Under the pieces are notes generated by a model. The model worked only from the letters and a program-made list of their open reading frames with translations. It did not search any database and was not told the origin of the DNA. Source: the human T2T-CHM13v2.0 reference genome, Homo sapiens. Taken from it: DNA of 64,000 nt. The stretch's first letter is position 1. Every line of letters begins with the position of its first letter. The stretch lies in assembly GCF_009914755.1 (NCBI RefSeq), contig NC_060925.1; one strand, written 5' to 3'. This document shows positions 1,306 to 59,950 of the stretch, one piece after another. A program made the position numbers and the translations under genes.

Positions 1306-1686
1306 TGGATAGCCTTGAATATACTTAGCTTGTCCAAAGGCTAATGTTTTGAAATACTTGAAGAGTTGCTGAATGAATTTCAAGGAGGTGTAGTCATCTT
1401 GGGGGCATTCAGATACTTTCTATGCTAAAAGGGGGCTGTGAGTGTTTTTTAAGAATGTCACACACTGTTTGAGATAATTAGTACCTTCCTAGTTCTGCAT
1501 TACTGCACTAAAATAACCGATAAATTCTATCTCCATTAAAGCAGGAATGGATAGCCTTGAATACATGTAGCTTGTCCAAAGGCTAAAGTTTTAAAATACT
1601 TGAAGAGTTGCTGAATGAATTTCAAGGAGGTGTAGTTATCTGAGGGGCATTCAGGTACTTTCTATGCTAAGAGGGGCCTGTGAGTT
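1306..1686 (+). repeat. Local direct duplication of ~138 bp (copy A 1306-1443, copy B 1548-1685)
   Basis: TGGATAGCCTTGAATA...CTGTGAGT occurs twice, 242 bp apart; about 11 mismatches by hand count. Confidence 0.95.
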
Positions 1687-2619
1687 TTAGAGAAAGAAAG
1701 GGACAGATTAAAGCAGTAAGTTAAACCATTACAGAAACAGTGGATTGGTTGTAAAAAGAAACGAGAAATGCCAGAGCTGTCTCCCACTCCTGCAAGAAAA
1801 GGCATAGCAGAAGGAAGTGCTACTTAGAGCCTGGGTTATTGAAGCAACACAGCAGAAAATTTGGTCCTTGTTACACTCCAGAACTTTGAAATCATCTACA
1901 GCAGCTGCTGAGCCATTTATTCTCCAGTGGAAATGAAAGACAGGGGATGAGGAAAAACTGTTGCACGGCAGGTGGGATTCACAGACTTAACTCCATAGAG
2001 AGAGGAGTGGCAGCAGCATGTGATGAGTGACCAGAGACACCCCAATGAGGCCAGACCACTGAGAAGAGCCCACCCCTAGGTCAGCATTATGCTCAAAACC
2101 ATGGGCTTCCAAAATGAAATGAAAATGAAGACCTAGGGAATAGGCAAAATAGTAATAAAAGCACTTCAGATAAGACCTGGTTACTTGACGGTCACCCTGG
2201 CAAATTGCTCAACTTTGCATAAATGTAGCAATGCCTCAAATGCTACTCCCCCTGAGAGAGAAAAATGGCATGCACGGAGGTCTATCTGTCCCAACTTCAG
2301 TCATGGTAAATGCCTTGGACCAAAATTAAACACTTGATGGGTAATTTCTTCCAACTCAGTTTAAATTTACCAGTTTGGGCTCTAAACAACTGGGGTGTAT
2401 GAAAAGGGCAAAATTTGAAATTGTTTCCTCCACCTACCTGCTTTTCTTTAGAAACTGTTGAGCATTTTCCCTGGTCTTAGACAATGCTGAGAATGGAGTT
2501 CTCAGAAAATAATTTTGTCTGGATTAACTCTTCTCCGAATTGGGGATTCTTGTTTCTAAATTTGGAGATGGGCAGCAGAAGAGTGGACTTCGGAACTTCC
2601 TGCACTTATGTCTTGGCTT

Positions 2620-2800
2620 GTTCCTAAACCAGCTGAAGCATCTTGGGCAAGTTCCTTAATTTCCAGGCTTCAATTTTTTTTTCATCAAAAATGAGAATAA
2701 CACTACATAAAGAGTTAATGTAGTTATAGCTAAATAGCATAATACATAGAAAAATGTCCAGAACAGAATTAGTGACTAGATATTACTATTATTATTAGCT
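2620..2800 (+). mobile_element. MIR SINE fragment
   Basis: tcttgggcaagttccttaatttcc...ttcatcaaaaatgagaataa resembles the MIR core; boundaries approximate. Confidence 0.6.
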
Positions 2801-3754
2801 TTTTGTCCTCTTTAATAAGTAGGTACATCGAAGAACTGATGTAAAACTAATGTAGTTTCTGAGGCTTTAAAGGACTGAGTTCAGTAAGAGACAAGTTGGC
2901 TTACAGCTGCCGCGGCTGTCCCAACCTCGCCTGAAGCCCATCTAGCTGAGGCAGAGCAGCATAAGTGGTTGGGGAAAAGGGACTTTTGGCTTTTATTTTC
3001 TTGGTTTTTCACTTATCAGGGCAAGGGAAAGGAATCTATCAGCTTTAACTATGCCCTGCAAATGTGATAATGGAAGGGAAGTTATATCCATACGTAAGAC
3101 ATCCCTTTGTTGACATTTTGTCATTAAAGTGTGATAATGTTGTCATCCAGTCTTACTGCAGAACTTCGAAAGTCTGTTTGAAGATATGGCTGGGCATGGT
3201 TTGGAGTAGCAAGTAGAGCAGGAAATAGAATACAGAATAGGGAATGGATTTTCTGCCTTAGAATGTGGGTTTAGAACTAATTTGATTAACGATTTGTTCT
3301 GGTTCATTTCAAACTCCTTTGAAGTTAAATAATAAACTGTCCACCCATGATCCTAAGAGGATGCACAAAGGGACAGTGCTGAGAACACAAGTGTCCTAAA
3401 AAGCCACTGATTTTCTTCCTGGAGATGGTCATTCATGCACTGAGTTTTTAAGCCTTGTGGGTTTAGAAAATAAAAAACTCGAGAGGTTAGTGAACGAATG
3501 CTTCTCCCCTGCTCTTGGTGCCTCCCTCCTTGTGAAGGGAGCTCTGCAGTGAGTCACCTCTGGCCTCTCACTCGCCAACCAAGGGTGGTGAGCATGGGAT
3601 AAAAAACTGTGAATGTGCCATCCAGACACCTGCTTATCTATTTCTCTTTGGAATGGGGTTGCCCGAGGAGCCATTTCTGCTCAATATTCTGCCAGAAAGT
3701 GAAAGAGACCACTCTGGTGATCCCCCACTTCCTGTGACTGAGTAAGAAAATCTC

Positions 3755-4052
<298 letters not shown>

Positions 4053-4199
4053 TCAGCTGGGGCCCCAGCCATGATACCACATTACAGGAAGGACTCGGGG
4101 ACTGGGACAGGGAATAACAACTGAAGGACAAGAAAGCTGTGTTCCAGCCAGCTCCTAAGGAACTTTCCTGAGAGCCACACTCAAGAAGTTCCATGCCAT

Positions 4200-5049
4200 G
4201 TCATTGACAACCCCTAGACACAAAGATAGCTGAAAATGTAGTCACTATGTTAAGCACAGTGACACCCCAAATAAACTTGGGTTCTTATTGGAGACTGTGG
4301 GAAAATAAATGTTGCATAAGCAACCATAAGTCTCTGCCAGGGAGCCCTTAGCGGAAGCCTGAGGGAGGTTTTGAGAGGCTTTTGTTTTTCTCCTAAAGGA
4401 GAAAAGTTGCAGCCTGAAGAGAGGCCCTTGTCCTTTTCTCTCCTAGCTTTGAAAGTGGGTTGACACCAAGAGGTGGAATGGCCATCTTGCAACCCAGAAA
4501 TGAACATGGGGAGGAAGGATAAATGCCAAATAAGTCACAGAGGTTTCTGGTCTTGCCATTGCTGAGCCATTGAGCCAACACTAACAGCTACTTACCTTCA
4601 ATGATCTTATTGTGTGAAAAACTTTTATGTGTTAATTCACTGGTGTATTAGTCCATTCTTGCATTGCTACAAAGAACTACCTGAGACTGGGTAATTTACA
4701 AAGAAAAGAGGTTTAATTGGCTCACGGTTCTGCAGGCTGTACAGGAAGCATGGCTGAGGAGGCATGGCGGAAGGCCAAGGGGAAGGAGATTCATCCTCCG
4801 TGGGTGGAGCAGGAGGAAGAGAGCGAAGCGGGAGGAGCTACACACTTTTAAACAAGCAGATCTCATGAGAACTCACTCACTATTATGACAACAGCAAGAG
4901 AGAAATCCATCACCCCCCACCAGGCCCCTCCTCCGATATTGGGGATTACAATTAGACATAAGATTTGGGTGAGGACACAAATCCAAACCATATCAACTGG
5001 AGTCACATATTTTGCTGCCCTATAAGCAAATATATTCATAACTGATATA
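4200..5049 (+). mobile_element. Old MLT1-family MaLR LTR, interrupted by an MST LTR
   Basis: gccatcttgcaacc...gagccattgagcc motifs; the 3' end resumes after 5000 (...ataactgatata); left boundary approximate. Confidence 0.55.
4644..4995 (-). mobile_element. MST (MSTA/B-like) MaLR solo LTR
   Basis: TGTATTAGTCCATTC...AACCATATCA termini; perfect 5-bp TSD ACTGG at 4639-4643 and 4996-5000. Confidence 0.9.
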
Positions 5050-5087
5050 AATCTTAAATATCAGTCATTTGGTTTGGTTTTAGCTTC

Positions 5088-5092
<5 letters not shown>

Positions 5093-5126
<34 letters not shown>
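5093..5126. repeat. (TG)n microsatellite
   Basis: About 17 TG units. Confidence 0.95.
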
Positions 5127-5128
<2 letters not shown>

Positions 5129-5769
5129 GGTGGAATGTGTTGAAGGAATTAGAGCCTGTCATTTTTCTCACAGAAAAGATAGGAAGTTTGTGAGATAATG
5201 TCAATATAAAAGCTTTCCAAAGGATCAAAAAGATTTCTAGAATTCACTTAATCCATTTCCATATCTACATTGTCTGTATTTTCTAAAGAAAATATCTTCA
5301 GACATACTTCCCATCACTTCAAAGCTCATATACATGACCAGAGATTTTTAGTATTTAATTAGCATCTTGCTGAATTATAAGTCATTTCCCCTTTGTCCTG
5401 GCCTCATTGAATAGGGTGAACAGATGTTCTACTTCCCTTGACAAAATCTTTTCACTCCTCAATGGCTGTAATTAAATGCCTCTTCAGTCTTCTCATCTGG
5501 ACAAATTAATTCAATTTCTTGAAATCTGGACCCTAACGGACTAACACTTGCACCTTTTTGGTCACCACTGTTGTACCTCTCTGGACTCATTTCAAGTTCA
5601 CTGCATCTTACTTCTGTAATTTGTCAGATGCCAGGAAGAAATATAAAAATAAAGGCCCAGAATTGGAAGTGGGTCATCTCAATCTCCTTTCCTGATATTC
5701 TAGCCTCGAAAATATTCCTCACCCATCAACATTGCTGATAAGGTTAGATACGTCTTATTTGTTTGAGGA

Positions 5770-5937
5770 AGTTCTAGCTATATACTGAAGTCATCTGGAG
5801 AACTTTTAGAGAATATTCATGCCTGGGTCCCATTCACAACAATTTTGATTTCATTGGCCGAGAGCAGGGTCTCAGCATTGTTGTTCCGTGAAAGTTTTCC
5901 AAATGCATCTAATGCACAGCCAGGCTTGAGAACCAGA
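5770..5937. mobile_element. MER5-like hAT-Charlie DNA transposon remnant
   Basis: atgcctgggtccca...tctaatgcacagccaggcttgagaacca resembles a MER5 end. Confidence 0.65.
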
Positions 5938-6185
5938 GAGCTATTTCCTCCGGCTATTCTTTACATTTCAGTATCTCCTGTCTCCATTTTGTTTCTGCTC
6001 CGTAAATCTTCTCACAAACTCTTAGGAACTTGCTCTCCATGGCTTTACCCTGTCTGTATACAAACATGCTCACTTCTTCCCCACCTGTAACAAAATTAAC
6101 AAAGCAAACAAACAAACTAAAAAAATGTTAGCCTTCTGCCGTGAGAGCGCCTCTAGCTAGCCTGTCTTTATTCTTAATAGCCAAG

Positions 6186-6573
6186 TGCTTTGGCTTGAAT
6201 GTTTCTCCCCTCCAAAACTCAAGTAGAAATTTAGTTTTCATTCCAACAGTATTAAAAGGTGGAACCTTTAAGTGATCAGCCCATGAGGGCTCTGCTGTCT
6301 TAATACCCTTTAAAAAGTGTGAGTTCAGCCCTGTGAGTTTAGCCCCCTTTCTCTGTTTGCATTTTCATCTTCTGCCATGTGAAAGCGAAGCTTTCCTCCC
6401 CTCTGGAGGATGTAGCATTGGAGGCACTATCTTGGAATCAGAGTTGGCAGACCTGCTGGTGCCTTGATCTCAGACTTCCCAGCCTCCAGAACTGTAAGCC
6501 AACAAGATTTTGTTCACTATAAATTACCCAGTCTGTGATATTCTGTTATAGCAGCACAAAAGGGACTAAGACA
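6186..6573 (+). mobile_element. MaLR solo LTR (MSTC/D or MLT1A-like)
   Basis: TGCTTTGGCTTGAATG...GACTAAGACA termini; perfect TSD CCAAG at 6181-6185 and 6574-6578. Confidence 0.85.
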
Positions 6574-6579
6574 CCAAGC

Positions 6580-8050
6580 TTCTGGAAAAGTCAACCTACA
6601 CACACCCTTTGTTCATCTTTTATTCATTCCTCAATCCACCTGGCTTTTAAAATGTATCTTCCTATCCATGCTGAAAACTATTTCAATCATCAAGGTACTG
6701 AATCTAAAAACTACTTCTTGTTTTTATTTTACTTCACTTCTCTGCAACTGTTGACATTATTGTCCCACACTCTCCTGTCTAAAACACTTCCTCCTCTTGT
6801 CTTTAAAATGCTACTCTTTTTACCTGCCTGTCTTTCCCATTGGTCTGCTTTGCCCAATAATGTTCAAAATGTTGGTGTACCCCAGGCACCATGCTAGTCT
6901 CCCTCTAAAATTTCTAAACACTCTCCCTGAGTAATCCCAATCTCCTCCTTTCTTCAGTCTTCTTGTTGATGTGTTATAAATCTATATATCTCAGCTCCAG
7001 CTTCCTGAGTTTCAGATCCATGCATCCAACTACTTTCTGGCATTATAATATCTAGCAGGTACTTCAAGTTTGATATGTACAAAACATAATTGTTTTCTCC
7101 TCCACACCAAACCTACCTGGTCCTGTATTCTCTTGTCTTTAATTAATTCCATTGTCTTTATTAGTGGTACCACTAATTACCTAGAAACCCCAAGAATCAC
7201 CTTCAGCCTTCATTTGTGATCTCCTCCCATATGTTGGACACCAAGTCTCTTTAATTCTACTTCTAGAAGATCTCTTGAAATTTCCCTCCACTGCTCATGC
7301 CTTAGTCCAAATTCTTAACTCAAAAATTAACATATATAATAGTTTCTAATTTGTCTGTAATCCGTTTCCACAGATGCTAGAATTATCTTCATAAAATAAA
7401 AATTTGATTACATTACAACCCAAAATAAAATACTTCAAATGCTCTTTATCTCTTATAGTACCTCATTCACTCATTCAGGAATTTTTGTAATTTAGCCTCC
7501 TCCTATCTTTTTATTTTCACCTTCTGCCCCTCTCCCAGGTGCACTGAAATTATTGGAGTTTTCTGAACAAATTCATGTCTCCTATCTCAGCACATTATTA
7601 TTCCATTGCTAGGAATGTCACTAGCCAAAGTCTATCTAACAAACCCCTCCTTATCTTTTATGGATGATAAGCTCTCTCAGGGCCATCTCATCTTTACTGT
7701 ACTTACAGCCCTCTGCATAGTATCTGGAACACAGTAGGTACCCACTAAATATTTACTGTGTGAAATCTTTTCTGTCTGCCTACATCCCACTTCAAGCAGA
7801 GTTAGATCTAATAGTTGTGGTCTCATAGCAACATGTACATACAGCTATAATATAATAGTGTTCATCCCATTAGATTGTAATTACTTATTTGTCTGCATCC
7901 TCTACTGAACGATGAGCTCTTTGATGGAAGAGGATGTGTTATGTTTGCTTTTGTATTTCTACCATTCAGCAGTGTCTAATATATTGCAGATACTGCTGAT
8001 TTTTGGCAAGTTCATTAATACATTCATAGAAGTGATGAGATGGGTAAATT
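6580..8050 (+). mobile_element. L2 LINE fragments
   Basis: Pyrimidine-rich L2-like body; L2 3'-end motif atagtatctggaacacagtagg...aaatattt near 7718-7762; a second 3' end near 7950-8030. Confidence 0.65.
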
Positions 8051-8339
8051 GAATTGAGAACTTAAAAACTAAAGATTGTGCAACTTTCAAAAAGTGAAGA
8101 GATACCCAGACATCAAACTATCTTTGTAATGTATATATCATAAGGTTTGAGTGTATACATATTAGAAAGATGAAAATTGTTTACAAAAAGAAAATTACAA
8201 GATAAATTTTCATTTACATATAATGAGTGTGAAAATATATTTCTGGTATTCTAACAATATATACTATCATTCTCTTTTTGTCTCTTATTTAGGAAGAGAA
8301 ATAAATAGTTTCATGACTCAATTTTGGCGTAGCTCTATG

Positions 8340-8530
8340 AAGAAGTTTAGCAAATAGTTTCTGGAGTTGGAATTCCTGGGTTTGAATTCCAACTCTACCG
8401 CTTAGGATCTTGGGAAAATCATTTAATCTGTGCTTTAGTTTACTCATTTGTAAATTTAGAGTTGTTATAAGGGTTAAGTAAGATTATACACATAAAACAT
8501 TTAGAACAGGGCCAGATAGAGTTAGCACTT
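8340..8530 (+). mobile_element. MIR SINE
   Basis: cctgggtttgaattccaactctacc...tttactcatttgtaaa core. Confidence 0.7.
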
Positions 8531-8939
8531 GAGTCTCTGATTCATAACAGCCAACAACCTATTTCTATAAATCATAAATTACTTTGCCTGTGACATGAAA
8601 GACATGTGACGTATTGTTGGCATTAAGAAATGGCCTCAGTTTGGAGGATCAAATTAATTTTCCAATAGAATTTACAGATTTTATAAGAAATACACAAGTG
8701 GTTTATCTACCTGAAATTTGTAAACAGGGTAATTGATCCAGTTATAACTATGTTGTTGGGACTCTGTATTTGTACATTACCACTGATATCTGTGTGCTAG
8801 CAGAGATTTGAATTTTCTGTTCTGTCTCCTGAAGAGCCCCTGACTGACAGAACATTTGAATACTGTGATTATATGGATCCAGTGATCATATGAATCACTG
8901 GATTTGTTTCATTTTTATCATAAATAAATGAAAGAGAAA

Positions 8940-9090
8940 GGATCGTAGAACGTTAGGATCCTAGAATTCTAGAAGCCGTCTTAAAGACTATGTTCTATAA
9001 AACTTCATTTTACAGATGAGAACATTGAAATTTGAAAGGTTGGATAATTTCATGAGATCACATGAGTGGGAAGACAGGGTTGCAATGAGT
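8940..9090 (-). mobile_element. MIR SINE fragment
   Basis: cattttacagatgagaacattga is the reverse MIR core. Confidence 0.6.
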
Positions 9091-9241
9091 CTTTGGCTGG
9101 ACTAAAAGGAATTCACATAAACAGATGAATTAGCTAGACAAAGTGAGACTTAATTTGTCAGTGTGGCTGATGAGAAGGGGGTGCTTCTTAAAGCTTTGTG
9201 AGAAACCCCTCAGTTGCCTTCCTAAAGAGAAAGGCATTCCA

Positions 9242-9430
9242 TTAGTATAAGTAAAGGAAGATAAGATGTATCTTGTAAAGTATAGAAGGTTTGTCACGAG
9301 AACATTTTGTAAAGATAGAAGTTTCAGGTGATTAACAAGAAGTACTAGATAAAGTGAGTAGAAAAATTAGGAATCAGTACATACGTGATCCCAGACTTGC
9401 TGTGGGATGAAGGTGGTCTGATTCACCTCC
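9242..9430 (+). repeat. Donor copy of a ~189-bp segment duplicated at 11954-12451
   Basis: TTAGTATAAGTAAAGGAAGATA...GGTCTGATTCACCTCC occurs at both sites; about 20 differences by hand count. Confidence 0.95.
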
Positions 9431-9646
9431 ACATGATGTGAGCTTTCTGCTCTGCCTAATGGTCAGGTGTATTTATGTGGTGGAGGCAAAGACATTCCAA
9501 GACTATAGGGAGATAGCTCCTTTAAAGCACATGCTCCACTCTATTCTACTGCCTTACTCACCAAGTGAGTTTTTGATAGTTATTTTATTCTCCAGGAAAG
9601 ACTTTCATTCTTTGAATAGCATTATCTGATGAACTGACATAAGTAT

Positions 9647-9954
9647 TTCTTTTCTTTTCTTTGTTTCTTTTGAGACAAGGTCTTTCTCTGTCACTCAGGC
9701 TGGAGTGCAGTGGACCAATCACGGCTCACTGTAGCCTCGACCTCCTAGGCTCAAGTGATCCTCCCACCTCTCCATCTTTCGAGTAGCTGGGACTACAGGC
9801 ATGCGCCACCACACTTGGCTATTTTTTTTTTTTTTTTAAGAGATGGGGTCTTACTGTGTTGCCCAGGCTGATCTCAAACTCCAGGGCTCAAGCGATCCTC
9901 CCACCTTGGCCTCCCAAAGTGCTAAGATTATAGGCGTGAGCAACTGCACCCAGC
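9647..9954 (-). mobile_element. AluJ-type SINE
   Basis: Reverse Alu with AluJ-like CAGCCTCGACCTCC / GCTCAAGCGATCCTCCCACC; flanking AGTATTT repeat. Confidence 0.9.
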
Positions 9955-10009
9955 AGTATTTGTTTTCCCTTACCAGTTACATGTCTGGGATGGAGTCACA
10001 CATTATTGC

Positions 10010-10420
10010 AGTGGATGCTATGGCATGCTACCAAGACCTGCCCTCCACAGCAAAACCAAAGCAATCATTCTCCCAGTTGCCAGGAATGTTGACAGCTGGC
10101 ATCTCCCAGCTAAGTCATTCTTTGGGATTTTCTTTTATCGGAAGAGAGTCACCTTTCCCACCTCTTTTCTGGGAAACCTACAGCTAAGAGAAGAATATAA
10201 TTGCTTAGCCCCCATATATAAAAGAGCATCCTTGCTCCAGAGCTTCCTGTAACACCAGCTAAAGACCTTTTTTGGTGACTTCATTACATTCAAACTTTTT
10301 TTCTTCCCACTCTTACTTTCTTCACTCCTCTGCAAATGTGTTGAGAGAACTCTTCAATAAATTTCTTGCACACAAGTCTCTATTTCAGAGTCTGCTTCCT
10401 AGGAAGCCTGAGGCAAATAT
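10010..10420 (+). mobile_element. LTR16-like ERVL solo LTR
   Basis: tgttgacagctggc; AATAAA followed by ...tcagagtctgcttcctaggaagcc, typical of an LTR16 3' end. Confidence 0.65.
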
Positions 10421-10619
10421 ACAAATCAGTTTCCAATAGGTTTACAGGGATTTAGAACCAACGGCGTGATCATCTCTGCAAATACTGTTTCTGAACCTAT
10501 CAAAATGAAGATCAGATCCTTAAAAGGTGGTGACCTTATCAAGTTTCAATAGATATTTATTGCATGAGACTTCCGAATATTTATTGTTTGAAGTTCTCTC
10601 CTGCCATTCACCTTTTTCC

Positions 10620-11669: not shown

Positions 11670-12678
<1,009 letters not shown>

Positions 12679-12765
12679 AACAAGTAATTTAAAAAAATTT
12701 TTGAAAACACTGACCTCTGAGCTAGATCTAGGCTATAAACATCTACCTTTTAATCTCACTTAAGG

Positions 12766-13156: not shown

Positions 13157-13191
<35 letters not shown>

Positions 13192-16609: not shown

Positions 16610-16800
16610 TCTAATTTATTCCTCACAATATTGATATGGGACACAACTATGATATACATGGGTATATGATAAGATATGGGTATATTATCATCCCCATTTT
16701 ACTGATGAGTAAATCGAGGCTCAGAGCCTAGGTACTTTGCTCAGGTTCTCACATTTGCTAAGTTGTGGAGCTGAGATTTGAACCTAGATCCGAGTGACAC
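16610..16800 (-). mobile_element. MIR SINE
   Basis: attatcatccccattttactgatgagtaaatcgaggctcagag...gagctgagatttgaacc. Confidence 0.75.
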
Positions 16801-37875: not shown

Positions 37876-38329
37876 GGCCTCTTTTTACTCTCCTCTCCAA
37901 CCTCCCTCACTATCCCTCAACTGCTTTCTCTTTTCAATCTTGGTGCCACACTTCAATCTCTCCCTTCTCTTAATTTCAATTCCTTTCATTTTCTGGTAGA
38001 GACAAAGGAGACACATTTTATCCATGGACCCAAAACCCCGGTGCTGGTCACGGACTGGGAAGGCAGCCTTCCCTTGGTGTTTAATCATTGCAGGGACGCC
38101 TCTCTGATTATTCACCCATGTTTCAGAGGTGTCAGACCACACAGGGATGCCTGCCTTGGTCCTTCACCCTTAGCGGCAAGACCCGCTTTTCTGGAGGAGG
38201 GGCAAGTACCCCAACCCCTTCTCTCCGTGTCTCTACCCCTTCTCTGCTTTTCTGGGGGAGGGACAAGAACCCCTCAACCCCTTCTCCTTCACCCTTAGCA
38301 GCAAGTCCCGCTTTTCTAGGGGGCAAGAA

Positions 38330-38570
38330 CCCCCAATCCCTTATTTCTGCACCCCAATCTCTTATCTCTGTGCCCCAATCCCTTATTCCATGCCCCAACC
38401 TCTTATCTCTGTACCCCAATCCCTTATTTCCATGCCCCAACCTCCTATCTCTGCACCCCGATCCCTAATTTCCACACCCCAATCTCTTATCTCTGTGCCC
38501 CAATCCCTTATTTCCATGCCCTGACGTCCTATCTCTGTGCCCCAACACGTTATTTCCACACCCCGACCCC
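38330..38570 (+). repeat. HERV-H leader tandem repeat (~20-21-bp units)
   Basis: Alternating CCCCAATCCCTTATTTC / CCCCAA(T/C)CTCTTATCTCTG units. Confidence 0.85.
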
Positions 38571-38877
38571 TTTCCCACTTTTCTGGAGGGTAAGAACCCC
38601 CGAACCCCTTCCCTCCGTGTCTCTACTCTCTCTTTTCTCTGGGCTTGCTTCCTTCACTATGGGCAACCTTCCACCCTCCATTCCTCCTTCTTCTCCCTTA
38701 GCCTGTGTTCTCAAGAACTTAAAACCTCTTCAACTCACACCTGACCTAAAGCCTAAATGCCTTATTTTCTTCTACAATGCTGCTTGACCCCAATACAAAC
38801 TCAACAGTGGTTTCAAATAGCCAGAAAACGGCACTTCCATTTTTTCCATCCTACAAGATCTAAATAATTCTTGTTGT

Positions 38878-45399: not shown

Positions 45400-45531
45400 C
45401 TGATGATAGTCTTTGAATTCAAGCAAACTTACCTTCAAATCCATCTGCTATCTACACCTTGGGCAAATTACATTCCTTCTCTGAGCATTAGTTTCCTCTT
45501 TTGTAAAAATAGATATAACTCACTGACCATG
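45400..45531 (+). mobile_element. MIR 5' part; its 3' tip reappears at ~46422-46455
   Basis: ccttgggcaaattac...ctctgagcattagtttcctcttttgtaaaa; later cctaacactcagaaagcactcaataaatg. Confidence 0.7.
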
Positions 45532-46214
45532 TGTATTAAGCCATTCTTGCATTGCTATAAAGAAATACCTGAGACTGAGTAATTTATTAAAAAAAGAGTT
45601 TTAATTGACTCGTGGTTCTGTAGACTATACAGGAAGCATAATGCTGACATCTGCTTGGCTTCTGAGGAGGCGTCAGGAAATTTACAGTCATGGCATATAT
45701 TATTCTGTTCTCACATTGCTGTAAAAAATACCTGAAACTGAATAATTTATAAAGAAAAGAGGTTTCATTGGCTCACAGTTCTGCAGGCTGTCCATGAAGC
45801 ATGGCAGCATCTGCTTGGCTTCTGGGGAGGCCTCAGGAAACTTACAATCATGGTGAAGGCAAAGGGAGAGCCAGCACTTCACATGACTGGAGCAGAAGGA
45901 AGGGGGTGTGTGGTGGTACACACTTCTAAACAGCCAAATTTCATCACTATCATGATGACAGCACCAAGGAAAATGGTGTTAAACCATGAGAAACTGCCCC
46001 AATGATCCAATCGCCTCCCACCAGGCCCCACCTCCAACATTGGGGATTCCAATTTGACATGAGATTTGGACGGGGACTCAGATCCAAATCATATCATGGC
46101 AGAAGGATAAGGGGGAGCAGGCATGCCACATGGCAAAAGCAGGAGCAAGAGAGAGCAAGGTGCTTCACACTTTTAAACATCCAGATCTCGCAAGAAGTCA
46201 TTCACCATCACAAG
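45532..46214 (-). mobile_element. Outer MSTB-like LTR, truncated
   Basis: TGTATTAAGCCATTCTTGC start; resumes at 46097; ends at ...catcacaag without its terminal portion. Confidence 0.85.
45696..46096 (-). mobile_element. Inner MSTB-like LTR nested in the outer MST
   Basis: Complete LTR ending ATCATATCA; TSD TGGCA at 45691-45695 and 46097-46101. Confidence 0.9.
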
Positions 46215-46422
46215 TGATGGTGTCTCGAAAAGTGGTGGTCATTTTTGCAATACACCATATGTAACCATCAATCTAGTAGTAAAAACCACAACCACAAAGG
46301 AAGGATTACATGAATGTGACCACTGACCCGTAAGTCACAGCCCAGCTGACCACTCAATCACTATGCATATGCCACAGCAAGTGTCTTAGACTGTGTTTCC
46401 CAGAAGTCTAAGATGGGGACTC
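46210..46422 (+). repeat. Copy of 47081-47310
   Basis: AAAGTGGTGGTCATTTTTGCAATA...AGATGGGGACTC is present at both sites. Confidence 0.93.
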
Positions 46423-46726: not shown

Positions 46727-47142
46727 GTATCAATCAGCATATTCTACCTAACAAACAAAATTTAGTGGTTTAATATAATAAACATTCATTTAGCTCATGA
46801 TTCTATGGGTCAGCAATTTGGACTGCATGGTTCTGCTGATATCAGCTTCCTCATGTATCTAAGGTACAGTGCTGTTTAGTTGAACAGCTTTGCTTCTGGA
46901 GACAATGGGGATAATGGGCTTGTGTCTCTCATCCAGCAGGTTAGCCTCACATAGTAGCTCTGGATTCCAAGAACAGCAAAAGAGCAAGCTCGATGTGCGC
47001 ATGCTTTTCCCAACTTCCTTGTTTGCTAATGTCTCATTAGTTAAAACAAGTCACTTGGCCAGTCCAAACTCAATAAATAGACAAGTAGATGCCATCTCAT
47101 GAAGTAAAGAGAGAAAGTGGTGGTCATTTTTGCAATATACCA
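46727..47142 (-). mobile_element. Old MLT1-type LTR
   Basis: ttagtggtttaa...tttagctcatgattctatgggtcagcaatttgg...ggtcatttttgcaatataccaca. Confidence 0.65.
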
Positions 47143-47271
47143 CATATAACCATCAATCTAGTAGTAAAAACCACAACCACAGGGAAAAATTGCAAGGATC
47201 TGACCACTGACCAATAAGTCACAGCCCAGCTGGCTGACCACTCCATCACTCTGCATATACCACAGCGAGTG

Positions 47272-47540
47272 TCTTACATTGTGTTTCCCAAAAGTCTGAG
47301 ATGGGGACTCTTGTGCTGTGATTTATTGTGGGATCCTCCTCAAAAGGACCCTCTAAAGAAATGAGAGACAAAGGATTGGGCAGAGGAAAGAAGTTCAGTA
47401 AAGTTGTAGTTTCACCTAAAGTGTAAACCCAGCCTGATGCCATGGGCAGACAGGCATATGAATGGCACCACAGAGTTGTCCAGACTTGAGGCAATAGTAT
47501 CAAGCTTCTATTCCTGTCCCCTCACCATATCAATCAGTCA
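47272..47540 (-). mobile_element. LTR16-like fragment
   Basis: tgtcttacattgtgtttccc...ctgagatggggactcttgtg...gatttatt resembles a reverse LTR16 3' end. Confidence 0.55.
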
Positions 47541-50515: not shown

Positions 50516-51039
50516 CAGTCTCAGGAAGAAAGCATGCATTCCTCTTTTCTCCCTCTTAGTGCTGCCAGGACCTGCAGAACTCCAGATGGATTCCCCTGGC
50601 TGACACTTGAAAGATTTTTGCTCTAACTTAATAGAAATGACAGACTGGCAAAGCCATAGTTAAATCAGTTGGAGGAGCCACAAATCAAATCATCTTTACA
50701 GAAAGGTACACAGCTAACAAGTCCTAATGGTAATGAGATTTGGGAAGTTTTTTTTTTTTAGTTGGGGGGTGGGCATTGTTGTTGCTGTTTGGCTTTCTAG
50801 ACCAGTAAGCCTGCCAGCAGGAATTGCTTACACACAGCTGTCACTTGGGTTCAGAGTGACTCAGAACACTCATAAAGAGATATAAACCACACGTGCCACC
50901 ACATGCTTCTGGGCCACCCGTGACATAGAGTATATCATTCATTTTCTGACACTTCTTATTTGCCATCTGCTCAGGGAAACCTCCAGAGCAAATTAGTGTA
51001 GCCCTCACTTTCAGACATTAAATCTACAGTTATGGGCAC

Positions 51040-51220
51040 AGTAGCTACCATGTGACAAGCATAGTGTTGGGCATTTAACAAATGTTTTCTCATTTAATTC
51101 TCACAACATCCTCCAGCAATGCTGTCCCTTTATGCAGATGAGTTTGTCCAAAGGCACCAGGCACCAGTGGCCAGGGAGAATCTAATCTCAGATTTGTCTG
51201 GAGCCAAAATTCACACATTT
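51040..51220 (-). mobile_element. MIR SINE
   Basis: ctcatttaattctcacaacatcc...ttatgcagatgag. Confidence 0.65.
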
Positions 51221-52306
51221 TTGCAATATCATGATGAGCTAAGGAGAATTTTGCTCGCGGGTCCCTCCCCAAACCCCACCTCCTGGCACACCTTTCCTTG
51301 TCCTCTCTGCAGCCTTTCCCAAGCACCCAAGGCCCAGGTGTCCACTTTTTGGGCCTTGACTTAGGTTTCTATAAAACAGAGTTTTTCCTAGTCCTGTCTT
51401 CTCTCATCAGGGATTTACCCCACAGACCATGACACTATGATATCAGTATCTTCCGTATCCTTGCAGGTCTTTCTAGGTACATGAAATGAGCCACAATAAC
51501 CTGATTCATATCATGGTCTTGATACTTAGCATAGCTTTACATTCAATGCCTCCCATAAAATCTCTTTGTATTTTAAGAGGAGCCATTATTAATAACTCAA
51601 AAGAATGAGTTATGAAAGCACAGCATTATCTAAAATTAATACACTATAAATGAAGGATGTGTTACAAATGTAGACTTTTCCTCTTTCTATAATTTCTCTC
51701 GTCCTAATCTGGAGGCTGTATCCTCACTTATAGCAGCTGGTAAGAAATCTTGGAATTTTCCTGTATAAGGTAATTTTATTTTTTCTGGTAAATAGCATTT
51801 CATATCTCACAATCTAAGTTTTAACTTCTTACCTATAGTGTTTCTTTCCTCCAAACTGTCTGTCTTCCTTATCTTTCCCTATAGATGTGAGTGCACATGG
51901 AAATTTATGGAGTCTCTCAGCATTGTAGAAGAGCCTCTGTTTCTTCTCACTGGTTCCTGTCCTCCTCAGCTTGGTATATAACTCCTGAGGGCTGAATACC
52001 TGGTTGCTGAAGGATCCAGTCCCTTCCCTATAACCGAGGAAGAATTTCTACTTCCCCTTCCTGTCCAGAAGTGATATTCCCAGGTATCACCTTTTTCTCT
52101 CCTGCCCTATGGACTTCAGATATATCTATCTGCCTTTCACTATGACAATAAATGTCACTGATTTGCTTTAATGGTAGAAAAGACTACAGAGAGAGAGAGT
52201 AAAAATAAAAAATGTATTAATATGGGAGAATATACACCCAGAGGAATTTTTGAAAATAGTTTCTCCATCACAGAAGCAAAACTAGAGCTGGGTGGTTTAT
52301 ACTGGG

Positions 52307-52661
52307 TGATATAGTTTGGCTGTGTCCCTACCCAAATCTCACCTTGAATTGTAATAATTCCCATGTGTCAAGTGTGGGACCAGGTAGAGATAATTGAATC
52401 ATGGGGGTGGTTTTCCCCATACCGTTCTCATGGTAATGAATAAGTCTCATGAGATCTGATGGTTTTATAAATGGGAGTTCCCCTGCACAAGCTGTCTTGC
52501 CTGCTGTCATGTAAGATGTGACTTTGCTCCTCATTCACCTTCTGCCATGACTGTGAGGCTTCCCCAGCCATGTGGAACTGTGAGTCAATCAAACCTCCTT
52601 CCTGTATAAATTACCTAGTCTCAGGTATGTCTTTATTAGCAGTGTGAGAACAGACTAATAC
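52307..52661 (+). mobile_element. THE1 (THE1C/D-like) solo LTR
   Basis: TGATATAGTTTGGCTGTGTCCC...GAGAACAGACTAATAC. Confidence 0.9.
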
Positions 52662-52804
52662 TATCTCCTCCTGTAGATAGCAAAGGAGTGATTCTACTGC
52701 ATTAACATTAATCTCATGAATTTAGCATCATTCCAGTCCTGGTTTTAGCTCAAGCCTAATTGGAGGAGAGTAGACAGCAACCAGCTGTAATACAAAAAGC
52801 AACC

Positions 52805-52995
52805 ATTTGGAATCAGAGCTAGATTCAAATCCAGGTCTCATCACTTCATACAATGTTACCTTTGGGCAAGTTATTCTGTCTCTTTGGGCTTCAAGTGGCC
52901 TTTCCAAAATGTCATCTACATCATAAAAGTGTTGCTGATATTCAGTGAAATATTCCATATGAAACCCCTCACAAAGGACCAGGAACATAGTAAGT
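52805..52995 (+). mobile_element. MIR SINE
   Basis: gattcaaatccagg...ttacctttgggcaagtta. Confidence 0.65.
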
Positions 52996-53436
52996 CTAAA
53001 TACATGTTTGTTTCCATTCCTCCACCATTTTCCTTTATAAGATGAAGTGAGAAATTATATGCTCTCTGGGAAATGGCTATCTGCAAAGACTTGTGGCATT
53101 CTACTTTCTGGATATATTGCCTTATGTCTGGCAAACTGTACTGATTAAAACTTTGAACAGAAGAAGGAAAAACTAATTTGGAAGGGCTAATCAAGACTCT
53201 CCATAGTCCAAAAGGGATGATTTCTCAGTTGTGCAGAGAACCAATAAACCTCCATCCTGAGGACAAAAGTAATTTTGTGAAACTGCATGAAGTTTCTCTA
53301 GAGAGAGAGACTTCACAAAGCCCAGTGGTCACAGCTGTGCAGTGGAACCGAACTACTTTGAATCTCTGCCATCAAAGGAAAGAATCTCAGGATTTTCTGC
53401 TACAGAAGCATGATCGTGTTTAAATTCTTAAAATGC

Positions 53437-54224
<788 letters not shown>

Positions 54225-57200
54225 ATTCCACCTCTTATCAATCAACTCATACACATCTTTTTAAACCATACTTAATCTTCAATTAAAGACACTAACAGGG
54301 TCATAATTTTGCCTAACGTGATACAACTATCCTGCATACAACTGAAAACACACTAATCCCTTCCCCAGAAGAGGAGGTAAAGTATTTGAGTGATGTTAAC
54401 TCTTCCCCTTGATATCTTATAACTTTACTTCTATGTAAGATTAATAATACTTAAATACTATGATATAAAGTCAATGCATCTTATGTTACATAAGGGAATA
54501 AGAGAGTGAAAAATATTTGCTTATATATAAATTGATTTATAAATATATAATATATATTCCATATATATTCAAATATTATATATATATATACATGTATATA
54601 TCCACACAAATATACTCATTACAAAACAAGGAGAAAATACTCATGGCAGTTATAGCCCTCATTTTTGTAACTGGTCACTTATTCTTAGCTGGTATTTATA
54701 AATACCTTCTTCTACTATTCATTCTGTATTCCCTTTGCCTTCAGCAAACACCTCAGCTGGTCATGGTTTTTCACCTGGCAGGGTGATCCAAATCTGAAGG
54801 GCCTGGTCATTAGTAGCCCTTGAGTCCTGGTCATTGAGTTGTTATAGTTTTATATTAACCATAATCGCAGCGCATGGTGACACTAAAAGATACCTGAAGG
54901 ATCTCCTGTTTTCTGGACATACTCTTCTCTGTCTCCATTATGGAATAATAGTCCAATTCCTCTTGGTGGTCTGAATCAATCACCTCAGTCAATACCATAC
55001 TTCCATTCTTTACCTGTTGACTCAAAACCAGAAGGAGCCCAAACTGACTGGGCAGCAGTCTTAACTTTCAGTTCAATGGAATCATCATAATGTCTCCTGG
55101 TGAAAGCATTTCTCCCTCACAACTAGAGACCTTTAGGCCGGCACAGTATAAAGTCATAGGAATGGGAAGCAACAATTTTGCTAGCTGGTCACTAAGGGTA
55201 ATGGTGGGTGGTTTTACTTCCATTTCCACCCTTTGATTCTTTGACCCATGAATCCAGTCTATGGAAGAGACAACACCAAATATTGGACACTGACTTAGAG
55301 CACAGAGAACCTTGCCCCAGCACTCAAGGTATTGCCACCTAACTGGCACTATAACTGACTCTTCACAAAGGTATTGCAGCATTTTATCAAGCCATCTGCT
55401 TCAGAATAGTGGAGAACATGGTTAAACCAGTGAATTACATGAGCGTGCATTTATTGCTGCACTTCTTTTGCTGTGGAGTGAGTTCCTTAATCACACGCAA
55501 CGCTGTGTGGAATGCCATGATAGTGGATAAAGCATTCTGTAAGTCCACAGATGGTAGTTTTGGCAAAAGCACTGTGTACAGGGAAGGCAAAGAGAAGTAT
55601 CTATTTCCGAAAAAAACACTGGCCCTTTCATAATGGAAGCAGGCCAGCAATGTAATAAACATGACTCCAGGTAGCTGGCTGATCACCTAGGGATGGTGCC
55701 ATATTGGAGGCTCAGTGTTGGTCTCTGCTACTGGCAGATTGGACCTTTAGCAGTGACCATAGCTAGGTCAGCCTTGGTGAGTGAAAGTCCATGTTTCTGA
55801 TCCTGTGAAAAACCTCCATGTCTGCCACCACGGAAACTTTGGTCATGAACCCATTGGGCAATGACAGGAGTGGCTGGGGAAAGAGGCTGAGTGGCATTCA
55901 CAGAAAGGGTCATCATATCTACTTGATTATTAAAGTTCTCCTCTGCTGTGGTCACCTTTTGGTGATCATTCACATGAAACATAAATATCTTCACAAGTTT
56001 TGCTGATTTGGAGATGTCTATCCACATTTCTGTCTCCTAAATTTATTTGTCACCAATTTTCCAATTACGTTCCTTCCGAGTTCCTGACCATCCGGCCAAA
56101 CAACCATTGGCTACAGCCTATACATAAGTATTTAATCACACATCTTGCCATTTCTCCCTCTAAGCAAAGGGAAAAACCAGGTACACTGACCGAATTTTTG
56201 TCCACTGTGGGGAGTTCCCTTCATGACTGTCTTTCAGGGATGTCCCAGAGAGTGGTTGTAGTGCTACAGCTGTACACTTCTGAGTGGTGCTGCATATCAT
56301 GCAGAAACATCTGTAAACCAGGCCTAATTCTTCTCTTCCTCTGCCAACTGATCATAGGGAACTCTCCATGAAGCCATAGGTACAGTCTGGGAGAGAGAAA
56401 GCAGTGTAGCAGAAGGGAGGACCATGGGCAATTGGGCAACTTCTTCATGTAAGTTACTTATGCCTTCAGAGACTGTTAGAGCTGGATCACATATATACCA
56501 CTTCCATTGATGATGAAGTGCTGCGTGCATGCCTAACTTTACAGCTTGGTGGTCAGATAACACCCAGTTTATTATGGGCAGCTCAGGTCACATGGTAACT
56601 TGGTGCCACACTGTTGAACATTCAGATTCTACTGATGCCCAGTAGCAGGCCAAGAACTGTCTCTCAAGAAAAAAAGAAGTAGTTATTTGCAGAAGATAGC
56701 AGGGACTTGCTCCAAAATCCTAAAGGCCTGCACTCCAATACACTTATATGGACCTGCCAAAGGCTTCAAACAGCATCTCAGTTCACCACTAATATATCAA
56801 GCACTATTGGATATGTTAAATCTTATGACTCAAGTAACAGAGCAACTTGCACAGTAACCTGGACCTATTGCAGAGCCTTGCTTTGTTCTAGGCTGCAGTC
56901 AAAACTAGAAGCTTTTCAGGTCGTTTTGTAAACGGCTCAGCAAAACACACCCAAATGTGGAATATGATGCCTCCAAAATCCAAAGAGGCCCAATATGTGC
57001 TGTGTCTCTTCCTTGGTTGCAGGTGGTGCCAGATGCAACAATTTAACCTTCACCTTAGAAAGGATATCTCCACATGCCCCACACCATTGGACACATAGAA
57101 ATTGCATTGAGTTAGAAAGCCCTTGAATTTTTGTCAGATTTATTTCCCAACTTCTGACACTTAAAGGTCTTATCGTTAAGTCTAGAGTGGTTGCTAATTC

Positions 57201-59950
57201 TCATTCACCAGGTCCAATCAGCAAAATGTGATTAATGTAATGGGCCAGTGTGATATCTTGTGGGAGAGAAAGGTGATCAAGATCCATGAAAACTAAATTA
57301 TGACATAGAACTGTAGAGTTGACATACCCTTGAGGTAGGAGAGTGAAAGTATGTTGCTGGCCTTGCCAACTAAAAGCAAACTGCTTTTCTGGTCCCTTCT
57401 GCTAGTTCCCATGGACAGGGATGATGAAAAAGCCATTTCCCAGATCAATAGCTGCATATCAGTGCCAGGAGATAGTTGATTTTCTCAATAAATGGAACCA
57501 TATCTGGTACAGAATCTGCAATTGGAGTCACCACTTGGTTAGGTTTATGATAATCCACTGTCTTTCTCCAAGACCTGTCTATCATGGGCCAAACAGGATA
57601 GTTGAATGGAGATATGGTGGAAATCACCATGCCTGCATCTTTTAAGTTTCTGAGAGTAGCACTAATTTCTGCATGTAGAATTGCTTCTGATTTGCTATTT
57701 TTCTAAGTAGAGGTAGTTCTAATGACTTCAATTTGGCCTTTTCTATCATAATAGCCCTCACTTCACAGGTCAGAGACTGAATGGAGGAATTCTGCCTGCT
57801 ACTAAATATGTCTATTTTAATTATGCATTCCAGAACTGGAGAAAAAGAAAAACACAGGATAGGTTCAAGGACCCATTGGACTCACTGTGAGACAAATCTG
57901 AGCTAAAACTTTATTGATCATCTGACTTCCACAAGCCCCTACTCTAATGAGAAGACCACTGTGATGTTTTAGGTCTCCTGTAATCAGTGGATAGACAAAT
58001 CCAGCGTCCAGTAGACCCAAAAGGTCTGATTATTTGCTTTTCCCCAGTGTACAGTTATCCTTGTAAAAGGCCATAGGTCCCTTTGAAGAAGGATAGGAGA
58101 AAGATTTAACAGTATAAATTTTTAGTATTATGCTGTGGTTCTTCCAGGGGTCCTAACATCCCCTTCACTCATAAGGTTCCAGGTCTGTAAACTGGCTCAT
58201 CTGGGAATTGATTGAGGGGCCACATCTCTCTGTTTTTATGATTTGAGTTAGACTTTTGTTTTTTGGCCTAGAAATGTTCTGCTTATACAGATCAATTAAG
58301 AATTTGGTAGGCTTCCTATCTATTTCACTTTGAGAAACATCATGATTAACTAGCCAACACCATACGTCTCCTGGAGTCAGACTATTCTGGTTGCTGCTTT
58401 GACTCTGCTGTTCATTATAATAACCATGCCCACTTTGCCTTTGGTGGTTAAGTGCCACTACCATCACTTGATTCCTGCCATATTCTGGGATCTAGAATTG
58501 CTTCTGATTTGTTATTTTTCTAAGTAGAGGTAGTTCTAATGACTTCCATTTGGCTTTTTCTATCATAATAGCCCTCACTTCACAGGTCAGGGGATGAATA
58601 GAGGACTTCTGCCTGCTAAATATGTCTATTTTAATTATGCATTCCAGAACTGGAGAAAAAAAATGGGATCTAGAAAATCCCATTGCATTTAGGTTTTCCA
58701 GTCGAATGACTGTGGTTCCCATTGTGAGGTGGAGCCTACAAAAAAGAGCAACCACAAAGCTTGACAAAGATGCTGGGTATCTCCTCAACATTTATTTATT
58801 TATTTATTCAAAGTATTTCTCAAAGTATTGGTGAAAGGTATGTCTTCTGGACCCTTTCAGCATAGGTGAGTAAGGTAAATGACAAATCCACTCCAATCTT
58901 CCAATCTCCTTAAGCCTTTGAATTTCTTCCTCTCTATTAAACTAAGGGAGGTCAGGCATTTCCAATTCATTTATGGTGGACCATCTTTTCATCTTTGCTT
59001 CACCCTACCAGTTAGAGCCCTTTCTGCCAAGCCACAATATTGAATGCAGAATCTCTGCTTACTGAGCCCATATCAATAAATTCAGCCTGATCCAATTTTA
59101 TGTTCCTTCTACCATTTTTCCACACCCTTAATTCCCACATATGTTCCACATCCATAATTCCCATACATGTTTCCTGGATTTCTGCTTGTATGAACTAATA
59201 ACCTCAAGTAGTTGTTTTGGAATTCAGTGCGCCCTGTTATGGGTCATACTTTGTACCTCACCTTTAGGGCCCTGCTGGGACTTGAGTCCAGTCATAGGTC
59301 TAGAAGCAAAGAGGAGTGGTCATGGTGAGTCCTGCGGAGAATCAGAATTGTCTTGCATGGCAGTTCTCTCAGGGGAGGCCCTTACCATTTTCTCAAGCAA
59401 TGCAGGGTTAAACCCCTCAGACAGAGGTGGACAGGCCAATACCTCTGACACTGGGGAGGCTGCTGTCAGTAGGGCTGGGGAGGCCTCTTCTACTGGGGCT
59501 GGGGAGACATCTCCCTCTGGCAAAGAAGGTTCATCAGAATTTAGGGGCTCAGTAACTCCAGGTTCATCAGGGTCTTCCCACATGGCCCCATCTCAAATTA
59601 TGGATCCCATTCTTTCTCAATCAATGCCCTCACTTTAACAGTAGACACCCTGGGAAGCTGGGATTTCAACTTGTGCTGTAATTTAGCCAATCATCAGATG
59701 AGGTTCTGCATTCAGCTTTCAGCATTTTCAGCCCTGTAACTATTGGAGATAAGGTTGTCCTTCAGGGCACACCTGGAAGCTCTTAGGTCATTTGTGATTC
59801 TTCACCTGGGAATTCAACTCCCTGAACTGAACTCATTTCTTTTTTTTCCACCACATATCCAGTAACATTAGGAGCAACCAACCAGCATCACTATATTCCT
59901 TATTTTTCCATAAATGTTCAAAAGTATCATATAGAGAGTCACTTAGCTCA
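54225..59950 (-). mobile_element. ERV-L (MLT2-associated) internal region with decayed gag-pol
   Basis: gag-like WEDPDEPGVTEPLNSDEP; RT-like SPFNYPVWP..DRSWRKTVDYHKPNQ; RNase H-like HVNDHQK..EENFNNQVD; dUTPase-like GEMLSPGDIMMIPLN; no matching 5' LTR seen. Confidence 0.85.
58493..58660 (+). repeat. Copy of 57676-57846 inserted within the ERV-L
   Basis: TAGAATTGCTTCTGATTTG...CCAGAACTGGAGAAAAA twice; about 9 differences by hand count. Confidence 0.95.

What the first reader, a model, noticed from the sequence alone, without database searches (positions are those of the whole stretch)
1306..58675. Four independent local 'copy a neighbour' insertions with a shared architecture
Seen: four 140-230 bp segments are copied in direct orientation from donors 0.24-2.7 kb away (1306->1548, 9242->11954, 47081->46210, 57676->58493). 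Three copies are bracketed by 12-13 bp target-site-like duplications, three have 4-5 bp microhomology at the left junction, and none has a clear poly(A) tail. Hand-counted donor/copy divergence runs from about 5% to 11%, suggesting events at different times. The copied segments are arbitrary (unique DNA, an LTR junction, ERV pol), so they are not units of a TE family. Known: templated insertions can arise by replication template switching (FoSTeS/MMBIR), polymerase-theta end joining or L1-mediated reverse transcription. Inference: the narrow size range plus short flanking duplications point to one recurring germline mechanism, such as repair of a staggered break by copying a nearby template or local nascent RNA. 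Repeat and segmental-duplication tracks would largely miss this. I cannot say whether four per 64 kb exceeds background.
Basis: partly seen in the sequence, partly recalled or inferred. Interest (0 to 1): 0.8.

Follow-up and report, generated by a model that had tools for sequence, protein, structure and literature searches.

The report
Known repair-made local DNA duplications
These short stretches of a human intergenic region are real copies of DNA lying a few hundred to three thousand bases away, the scar of error-prone chromosome-break repair that was catalogued in primates in 2009, and only their crowding into 64 kb looks unusual.

Summary
All four direct local copies exist at the stated places. 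A fifth exists: 1441-1546 is a 93% copy of DNA 2.96 kb upstream, just outside the window. The segments are not repeat-family units. Three are unique in the genome apart from their partner. The fourth lies inside an old retroviral element whose relatives lack the insert and carry the target once. Three copies are bracketed by 12-13 bp duplications, far beyond chance. None has a poly(A) tail. The fourth instead has a deletion and a 9-nt fold-back filler. This matches the "repair-mediated duplications" of Pace et al. 2009 (PMC2671141): 824 human cases, donor under 5 kb away, median 147 bp, microhomology, filler, deletions, sometimes target duplications. The kind is therefore known. "Events at different times" is not supported, because the divergences (5.7-10.4%) are statistically homogeneous. 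The 1306/1548 pair can equally be read as a 172-bp tandem duplication. The possible surprise is density: five events in 64 kb and none in 247 kb of comparison DNA. I could not obtain a genome-wide control.

The parts
1306..1446 (+). P1 left member (A), 141 bp
   Evidence: 91.5% identical to 1548-1688. Unique in the genome.
1441..1546 (+). Fifth event (B): a copy of DNA 2.96 kb upstream (chr1:240806481-240806583, window -1520..-1418). It fills the spacer between the P1 members.
   Evidence: 93% identity over 103 bp, with no homology beyond either end.
1535..1547 (+). Left copy of the 13-bp flank of P1 (ATTAAAGCAGGAA). Its first 8 bases are also present in the upstream donor of B.
1548..1688 (+). 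P1 right member (A')
1689..1706 (+). 18 purine-rich bases between A' and the second flank copy. They are either filler or ancestral sequence of a 172-bp tandem unit.
   Evidence: No convincing local template was found.
1707..1719 (+). Right copy of the 13-bp flank of P1 (ATTAAAGCAGTAA)
9246..9430 (+). P2 donor, preceded by TTAG at 9242-9245, which matches the end of the target
   Evidence: Unique in the genome except for its copy.
11945..11957 (+). P2 target duplication, left copy (CCTACCTTCTTAG)
11958..12449 (+). P2 acceptor. It was 184 bp when made and is now split by a later Alu.
12017..12318 (-). Alu inserted into the P2 acceptor after the duplication, flanked by AAAAAC
   Evidence: About 65 similar copies occur in 264 kb.
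12450..12462 (+). P2 target duplication, right copy. It overlaps the end of the copy by CC.
46203..46222 (+). Fold-back at the P3 acceptor's left junction: CACCATCAC-AA-GTGATGGTG. The left arm is the last bases of a truncated LTR-like repeat and the right arm is filler.
   Evidence: An inverted repeat of this kind occurs at 551 of 200000 random positions.
46227..46422 (+). P3 acceptor (probable). It abuts an LTR-like unit cut at about position 288 of 432, followed by 14 filler bases.
47112..47310 (+). P3 donor (probable)
   Evidence: Unique in the genome except for its partner.
56150..59580 (-). Decayed retroviral element that holds both the P4 donor and the P4 acceptor
   Evidence: Colinear with dispersed copies. 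RVT_1 on the minus strand at about 57090-57464, E 1.2e-7, 32.1 bits against a cut-off of 29.6, stops read as X.
57681..57849 (+). P4 donor, preceded by TAGAA at 57676-57680, which matches the end of the target
58486..58497 (+). P4 target duplication, left copy (TGGGATCTAGAA)
58498..58663 (+). P4 acceptor, 166 bp
   Evidence: Absent from paralogous copies of the element. 93% identical to the local donor against at most 82% for any other scored genomic copy.
58664..58675 (+). P4 target duplication, right copy

Best explanation
These are repair-mediated duplications. A germline chromosome break was mended by letting a broken 3' end prime on DNA a few hundred to three thousand bases away, probably on the sister chromatid or homologue out of register. 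The end copied about 100-190 bases and was then rejoined to the other end.

Shown here: the copies are local, direct, single-donor insertions without poly(A), and their junctions carry microhomology, filler, a deletion or a short target duplication.

Inferred: that a two-ended break was the lesion; that the 12-13 bp duplications come from a staggered break filled in, or from a short first round of correct copying before the wrong template was used; and that the fold-back filler at 46214-22 is snap-back synthesis by an end-joining polymerase.

The window holds four or five such events: B, P2, P3 and P4, with P1 either a fifth or a 172-bp tandem duplication.
For: 1. Local origin. P1, P2 and P3 have no other copy in the 3.1-Gb assembly. 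The P4 copy is 93% identical to its neighbour, against at most 82% for the other 38 scored copies.
2. Insertion status. Four of six fetched paralogues (L004-L007) are colinear on both sides of the P4 site without the insert. The three aligned across it each carry the target once.
3. Target duplications of 12-13 bp at three copies and at none of the partners. Binomial P is about 2e-6.
4. Microhomology between the target end and the donor's upstream flank: TTAG in P2 and TAGAA in P4.
5. The P3 acceptor sits 14 bases after a truncated repeat, and 9 of those bases are a fold-back copy of the repeat's end.
6. No poly(A) tail at any copy.
7. Every property matches the published class: donor under 5 kb away, mean 162 and median 147 bp, no poly(A) in 39 of 39 inspected cases, microhomology 2-9, filler 1-68, deletions, target duplication 4-21 nt in 6 of 39, and chimeric acceptors with two nearby donors (PMC2671141, sections read).
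8. Divergences of 5.7-10.4% fall in the range of the rows labelled 'All primates' in part 1 of their Table S1.
Against: - No outgroup genome was available, so an empty site is shown only for P4 (through paralogues) and indirectly for P3.
- Target duplications are a minority feature of the published class (6 of 39), yet occur here in 2-3 of 5 (Fisher P 0.05-0.22). The strand-annealing model does not itself explain a 12-13 bp duplication, and the paper offers no explanation (the word 'staggered' has 0 occurrences).
- P1 fits a tandem duplication of [141 + 18 + 13 bp] whose first unit had its 18 bases replaced by B. On that reading its 'target duplication' is just the end of the unit.
- The sequence alone cannot separate a two-ended break from a replication-fork template switch.
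- The local density is far above what the published catalogue implies.
Confidence: 0.8

Rival explanations
1. Replication-based template switching (FoSTeS, MMBIR or serial replication slippage). A nascent strand leaves its template, copies DNA behind the fork and returns a few bases behind its point of departure. This may have happened several times in one episode.
For: - The P1 locus can be written as one strand making three switches: from the end of A to the upstream donor, then to the 13-mer through 8 shared bases (ATTAAAGC), then to the start of A.
- All eight unique local pairs in 264 kb are direct.
- The donor lies upstream in four of the five events.
- Ages are homogeneous (P 0.54).
Against: - The return junctions of P2 and P4 have 0-2 shared bases, which looks like end joining rather than annealing.
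- P3 has a deletion of at least 144 bases of the repeat plus a fold-back filler, which is typical of a processed two-ended break.
- The events lie 10-35 kb apart.
- Donor side is mixed in the published catalogue: both U and D occur in the part of Table S1 that I read.
Confidence: 0.1
2. L1-mediated reverse transcription of local nascent RNA at an endonuclease nick (target-primed reverse transcription without a tail).
For: - Target duplications of 12-13 bp lie in the usual L1 range (recalled).
- Microhomology at the junction far from the priming site is known for truncated L1 inserts (recalled).
- Pace et al. note that the rate of these duplications tracks L1 activity.
Against: - No poly(A) or poly(T) at either end of any copy.
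- By direct reading, none of the three flank pairs starts or ends at a T-rich/A site resembling the L1 endonuclease consensus as I recall it.
- 0 of 39 proximal duplications in the published set had a tail, against 17 of 29 distant ones.
- P3 has a deletion and no target duplication.
Confidence: 0.06
3. The pairs are leftovers of larger tandem duplications whose second unit was later mostly deleted.
For: P1 is fully compatible with a 172-bp tandem duplication. A-M-t-A'-t is formally what remains of A-M-t-A'-M'-t after M' is lost.
Against: - For P2 and P4, a second, independent deletion of about 2.5 kb and 0.65 kb would have to stop 13 and 12 bases from the unit's end in both cases.
- The microhomology at the left junctions is then unexplained.
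- P3 has no flank repeat at all.
Confidence: 0.04

Closest known systems
[quoted passage not shown] I read the abstract, sections 6, 7, 8, 11, 14 and 17, passages, and part 1 of 15 of Table S1.
   Same: Donor within 5 kb on the same chromosome. Copies of about 100-200 bp (published mean 162, median 147). No poly(A). Microhomology, filler, deletion and occasional target duplication. Acceptors built from two nearby donors. Mostly 5-15% diverged.
   Different: None of these five could have been found by their method, which needs an acceptor inside an annotated repeat and a donor that is unique. They saw no tendency to cluster, whereas here there are five in 64 kb. Target duplications are more frequent here (2-3 of 5 against 6 of 39).
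'Doublets', short paired duplications: Thomas et al., PNAS 2004. Known to me only from Pace et al.'s description and from recall, because the paper is not held.
   Same: Short local duplications lying close together. The tendency to the same strand and the roughly 1 kb spacing are recalled. The pairs here share exact runs of 24-45 bases.
   Different: Doublets were defined by exact matches of 25-100 bp (recalled) without junction analysis. Here the junctions are resolved.
Templated insertions of MMBIR/FoSTeS and of polymerase-theta end joining. I saw only the search listings; the mechanisms are recalled.
   Same: Microhomology-primed copying of nearby DNA. The fold-back filler at the P3 junction resembles snap-back synthesis.
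   Different: Theta-type insertions are usually only tens of bases (recalled). MMBIR events are mostly described in disease and cancer and are often inverted.
L1-mediated retrocopies and the L1-type templated sequence insertion polymorphisms (recalled)
   Same: Target duplication of 12-13 bp.
   Different: No tail, no endonuclease-like site, and the donor is adjacent rather than distant.

Membership tests
Repair-mediated duplication (Pace et al. 2009) | The inserted sequence has exactly one other copy, within 5 kb on the same chromosome. | tested here: met
   Whole-assembly searches. P1 and B, P2 and P3 have only the partner. P4 is repeat-derived, but its nearest copy by 11 points of identity is 816 bp away. 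Distances are 242, 2962, 2712, 885 and 816 bp.
Repair-mediated duplication (Pace et al. 2009) | The acceptor is an insertion relative to the ancestral sequence (an empty site exists). | tested here: inconclusive
   Met for P4 through paralogous copies of the element. Indirect for P3, which lies next to a truncated repeat with fold-back filler. Not testable for P1, B and P2, because no outgroup genome was available.
Repair-mediated duplication (Pace et al. 2009) | Not tandem: donor and acceptor are more than 50 bp apart. | tested here: met
   The smallest gap is 101 bp, at P1. P1 may nevertheless derive from a tandem unit.
Repair-mediated duplication (Pace et al. 2009) | No poly(A)/poly(T) tract of 5 bp or more added at an end. 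| tested here: met
   Junctions were read directly. The A8 at the end of the P4 copy matches an A-rich run in the donor.
Repair-mediated duplication (Pace et al. 2009) | Junctions show microhomology, filler, deletion or a target duplication. | tested here: met
   P2: 4-bp microhomology plus a 13-bp duplication. P4: 5-bp microhomology plus a 12-bp duplication. P3: 14-nt filler plus loss of at least 144 bases of the repeat. P1: 18-nt filler plus a 13-bp duplication, or a tandem unit.
L1-mediated retrocopy | Poly(A) tail at the 3' end of the insert. | tested here: not met
L1-mediated retrocopy | Target duplication beginning at a T-rich/A endonuclease site. | tested here: not met
   Direct reading of the three flank pairs on both strands. 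The consensus itself is recalled and was not taken from a call.
Interspersed repeat family | Many dispersed copies sharing the same boundaries. | tested here: not met
   P1-P3 are unique. For P4, homology in other copies runs straight through the donor's ends.
Segmental duplication | At least 1 kb at 90% identity or more (definition as quoted). | tested here: not met
   The copies are 103-196 bp long.

The most novel reading that the evidence does not exclude
The five events are not independent. One possibility is that this 57-kb stretch was a long-lived germline break hotspot. Another is that several of the copies were made in one burst or one multi-switch replication-repair episode. This would be consistent with the homogeneous ages, the uniformly direct orientation and the donor lying upstream in four of five. 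Separately, the 12-13 bp duplications may mark a distinct sub-class made at breaks with a fixed stagger, produced by a specific nuclease.
Probability: 0.12. Interest if true: 0.55.

Novelty: new member of a known kind. Interest (0 to 1): 0.25.

Why it matters
The result shows that careful reading of raw sequence recovers a real but little-used class of germline mutation, which repeat and segmental-duplication tracks do not label. It also shows that the published catalogue (824 cases, all inside repeats) misses cases in unique DNA and cases copied from repeats. If the crowding seen here is real, these duplications are not scattered at random as reported. Their local density could then mark ancient break-prone DNA. 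The window contains no annotated gene, and no copy overlaps either RefSeq enhancer given in the hub's annotation, so no functional consequence is apparent.

Tried and rejected
- Chance or dispersed-repeat explanation: rejected by whole-assembly searches and by the flank-repeat nulls. The loose null gave 4.7% at 12 or more. The strict null gave 0.5%.
The only controls are therefore 200 kb flanking the window and 47,006 bases in 15 loci fetched for other reasons. These are neighbours or repeat-centred places, not a fair genome sample.
- Thomas et al. 2004 is not held.
- Pfam on 18 open frames of the P4 element gave nothing useful. A read-through with stops failed. Reading stops as X gave RVT_1.
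- A local template for the 18-nt stretch after the P1 copy: only a 10-mer 1.7 kb away, which is about what chance gives.
- Extension of the B/upstream homology into the flanks: none. Local alignment scores were 10-11, against a mean of 9.8 and a maximum of 14 for shuffles.
- Remainder of the truncated LTR-like unit after the P3 acceptor: not found.
- Inverted repeats at the other junctions: nothing beyond an 8-nt one at the end of the P2 copy, which largely pre-exists in the donor.
- Pace et al. Table S1 has no row whose coordinate starts 2394-2397. That hg18 position for the window is my estimate from recalled gene coordinates. I read only part 1 of 15 of the table.
Full report
**Observation.** A self-comparison of the window finds all four claimed direct pairs:
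- P1: 1306-1446 vs 1548-1688, 141 bp, 91.5% identity.
- P2: 9242-9430 vs 11954-12451, in two pieces.
- P3: 46229-46422 vs 47114-47310, 87%.
- P4: 57667-57849 vs 58483-58663, 92%.

The P2 copy is split because an antisense Alu (12017-12318, flanked by AAAAAC) landed in it later.

Three right-hand members are bracketed by short direct repeats:
- P1: ATTAAAGCAG[G/T]AA at 1535 and 1707.
- P2: CCTACCTTCTTAG at 11945 and 12450.
- P4: TGGGATCTAGAA at 58486 and 58664.

Their partners and both P3 members have nothing longer than 7 (9 for the upstream donor of B) under the same strict scoring. With a loose search window, a repeat of 12 or more turns up beside 4.7% of 1500 random segments. Requiring it to abut the homology ends cuts this to 20 of 4000, and to 10 of 4000 for 13 or more. 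Three of ten members scoring 13-14 is therefore far beyond chance (P about 2e-6).

**Not repeat units.** The assembly that holds the window can be searched.
- P1 with flanks matches only itself and one other place.
- P2 matches only itself and its copy.
- The two P3 members match only each other.
- The P4 donor has at least 389 candidate relatives, of which 40 were scored. The best non-local one is 82% identical, against 93% for the neighbour.

The six fetched relatives show that the donor lies inside an element more than 3.4 kb long. In four of them (L004-L007) homology runs on both sides of 58490-58663 without the insert.

I aligned four paralogue stretches across the site. Three (L004, L005, L007) aligned, and each carries the target once and no insert. 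The fourth (L003) did not align, because its homology ends at 58327. This is an empty site by paralogy, and it proves that the 12-bp duplication is real.

The element has a reverse-transcriptase match on the minus strand when stops are read as X (RVT_1, E 1.2e-7).

**A fifth event, and an ambiguity at P1.** The extra hit shows that the 101-bp spacer between the P1 members (1441-1546) is itself a 93% direct copy of chr1:240806481-240806583. That place is 2.96 kb upstream, just outside the window, and the homology does not extend beyond it. The left 13-mer of P1 is the end of this segment, and its first 8 bases are shared with the upstream donor.

Two readings fit the P1 locus:
- (a) A' plus 18 filler bases was inserted with a 13-bp target duplication exactly at the edge of B.
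- (b) A 172-bp unit (A + 18 nt + 13-mer) duplicated in tandem, and B then replaced the 18 nt in the first unit.

Reading (b) needs no coincidence of sites and makes the "target duplication" part of the unit. Reading (a) matches P2 and P4 in flank length. I cannot decide between them without an outgroup.

**P3.** The left member starts 14 bases after an LTR-like unit (about 432 bp, TG...CA ends) that is cut at about position 288. The remainder of that unit is not found nearby. Nine of the 14 bases are a perfect fold-back of the unit's last nine bases: CACCATCAC-AA-GTGATGGTG at 46203-46222. An inverted repeat of this kind occurs at 551 of 200000 random positions. This looks like a processed break with snap-back filler.

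**Junction details.**
- At P2, the last four bases of the target (TTAG) also precede the donor segment. The copy's last two bases (CC) overlap the second target copy.
- At P4, TAGAA is shared on the left and nothing on the right.
- No copy has an added A or T run.
- By direct reading, none of the three flank pairs sits at a site like the L1 endonuclease consensus as I recall it.

**Ages.** Mismatch fractions are B 9.4%, P1 8.5%, P2 10.2% (20 of 197, pooled from the two pieces, 11.9% and 9.2%), P3 10.4% and P4 5.7%. A homogeneity test gives P 0.54, so different dates are not shown. The values resemble those of the rows marked "All primates" in the published table. They suggest roughly 20-50 million years, depending on the rate used.

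**What is known.** A full-text search led to Pace et al. 2009 (PMC2671141). They found 824 human duplications with these properties:
- The donor lies within 5 kb.
- Mean length is 162 bp and median 147 bp.
- None of the 39 inspected had a tail.
- Junctions show microhomology of 2-9 nt, filler of 1-68 nt, and deletions.
- A target duplication of 4-21 nt occurred in 6 of 39.
- Twenty acceptors were built from two donors.

They assign these duplications to synthesis-dependent strand annealing at double-strand breaks. They place the peak at 30-42 Mya, in step with L1 activity, and they equate the class with the "doublets" of Thomas et al. 2004. Every feature in the window fits, so the kind is known.

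Their method needed an acceptor inside an annotated repeat and a unique donor, so it could not have found these five. No row of their Table S1 starts at the estimated hg18 position (that position is estimated from recall).

Further searches listed work on template switching and templated insertions. In those listings, which are all I read, nothing supersedes this description.

**Density.** I scanned the 264 kb formed by the window and 100 kb on each side. Non-tandem pairs at 85% identity or more, 60 bp or longer and no more than 5 kb apart comprise four Alu-Alu pairs and these five events, and nothing else. All five acceptors lie in the window. A more sensitive pass adds only three old direct pairs in the flanks, at 61-77% identity. 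Fifteen unrelated loci (47,006 bases, pair range 3 kb or less) have none at 85% or more.

Conditional on five events in 264 kb, all falling in the window has P 8e-4. The published count implies 0.04-0.34 events per 64 kb for assumed detection efficiencies from 100% down to 5%.

These figures are inflated by the fact that the window was flagged because of these pairs. I therefore regard the crowding as probable but unproven.

**Verdict.** The mechanism class is already in print. "Different times" and a single uniform architecture are overstated. The remaining points of interest are the local density and the recurrence of 12-13 bp duplications.

Noticed in passing
It forms the spacer between the P1 members.
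   Followed up: yes
window 45529-46214: An LTR-like unit of about 432 bp (TG...CA ends, over 1400 candidate copies in the genome) is split by a full second unit of the same family at 45695-46096. The second unit is flanked by a 5-bp duplication, TGGCA. The outer unit is then cut short at 46212.
   Followed up: partly
window 38160-38661: A minisatellite of roughly 21-bp C-rich units, about 60-85% alike.
   Followed up: no
window 12017-12318: An antisense Alu with a long T run, flanked by AAAAAC, lies inside the P2 acceptor. It gives a relative date: the duplication is older than this Alu.
   Followed up: partly
outside the window: window coordinates 141657-141764 vs 143089-143201 (loci L045-L046): An older unique direct local pair (77%, 118 bp, 1.4 kb apart) without a flank repeat. 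It may be a decayed event of the same kind.
   Followed up: partly
outside the window: -38365..-38202 (locus L034) and 101030-101362 (locus L041): Two simple tandem duplications: 81 bp at 95% identity, and about 167 bp at 73%.
   Followed up: no
window 12429-12452 and 9408-9430: The P2 donor segment ends exactly at a short hairpin-forming inverted repeat (AGGTG...CACCT, 8 nt in the copy). It may be chance, or it may mark where copying stopped.
   Followed up: no
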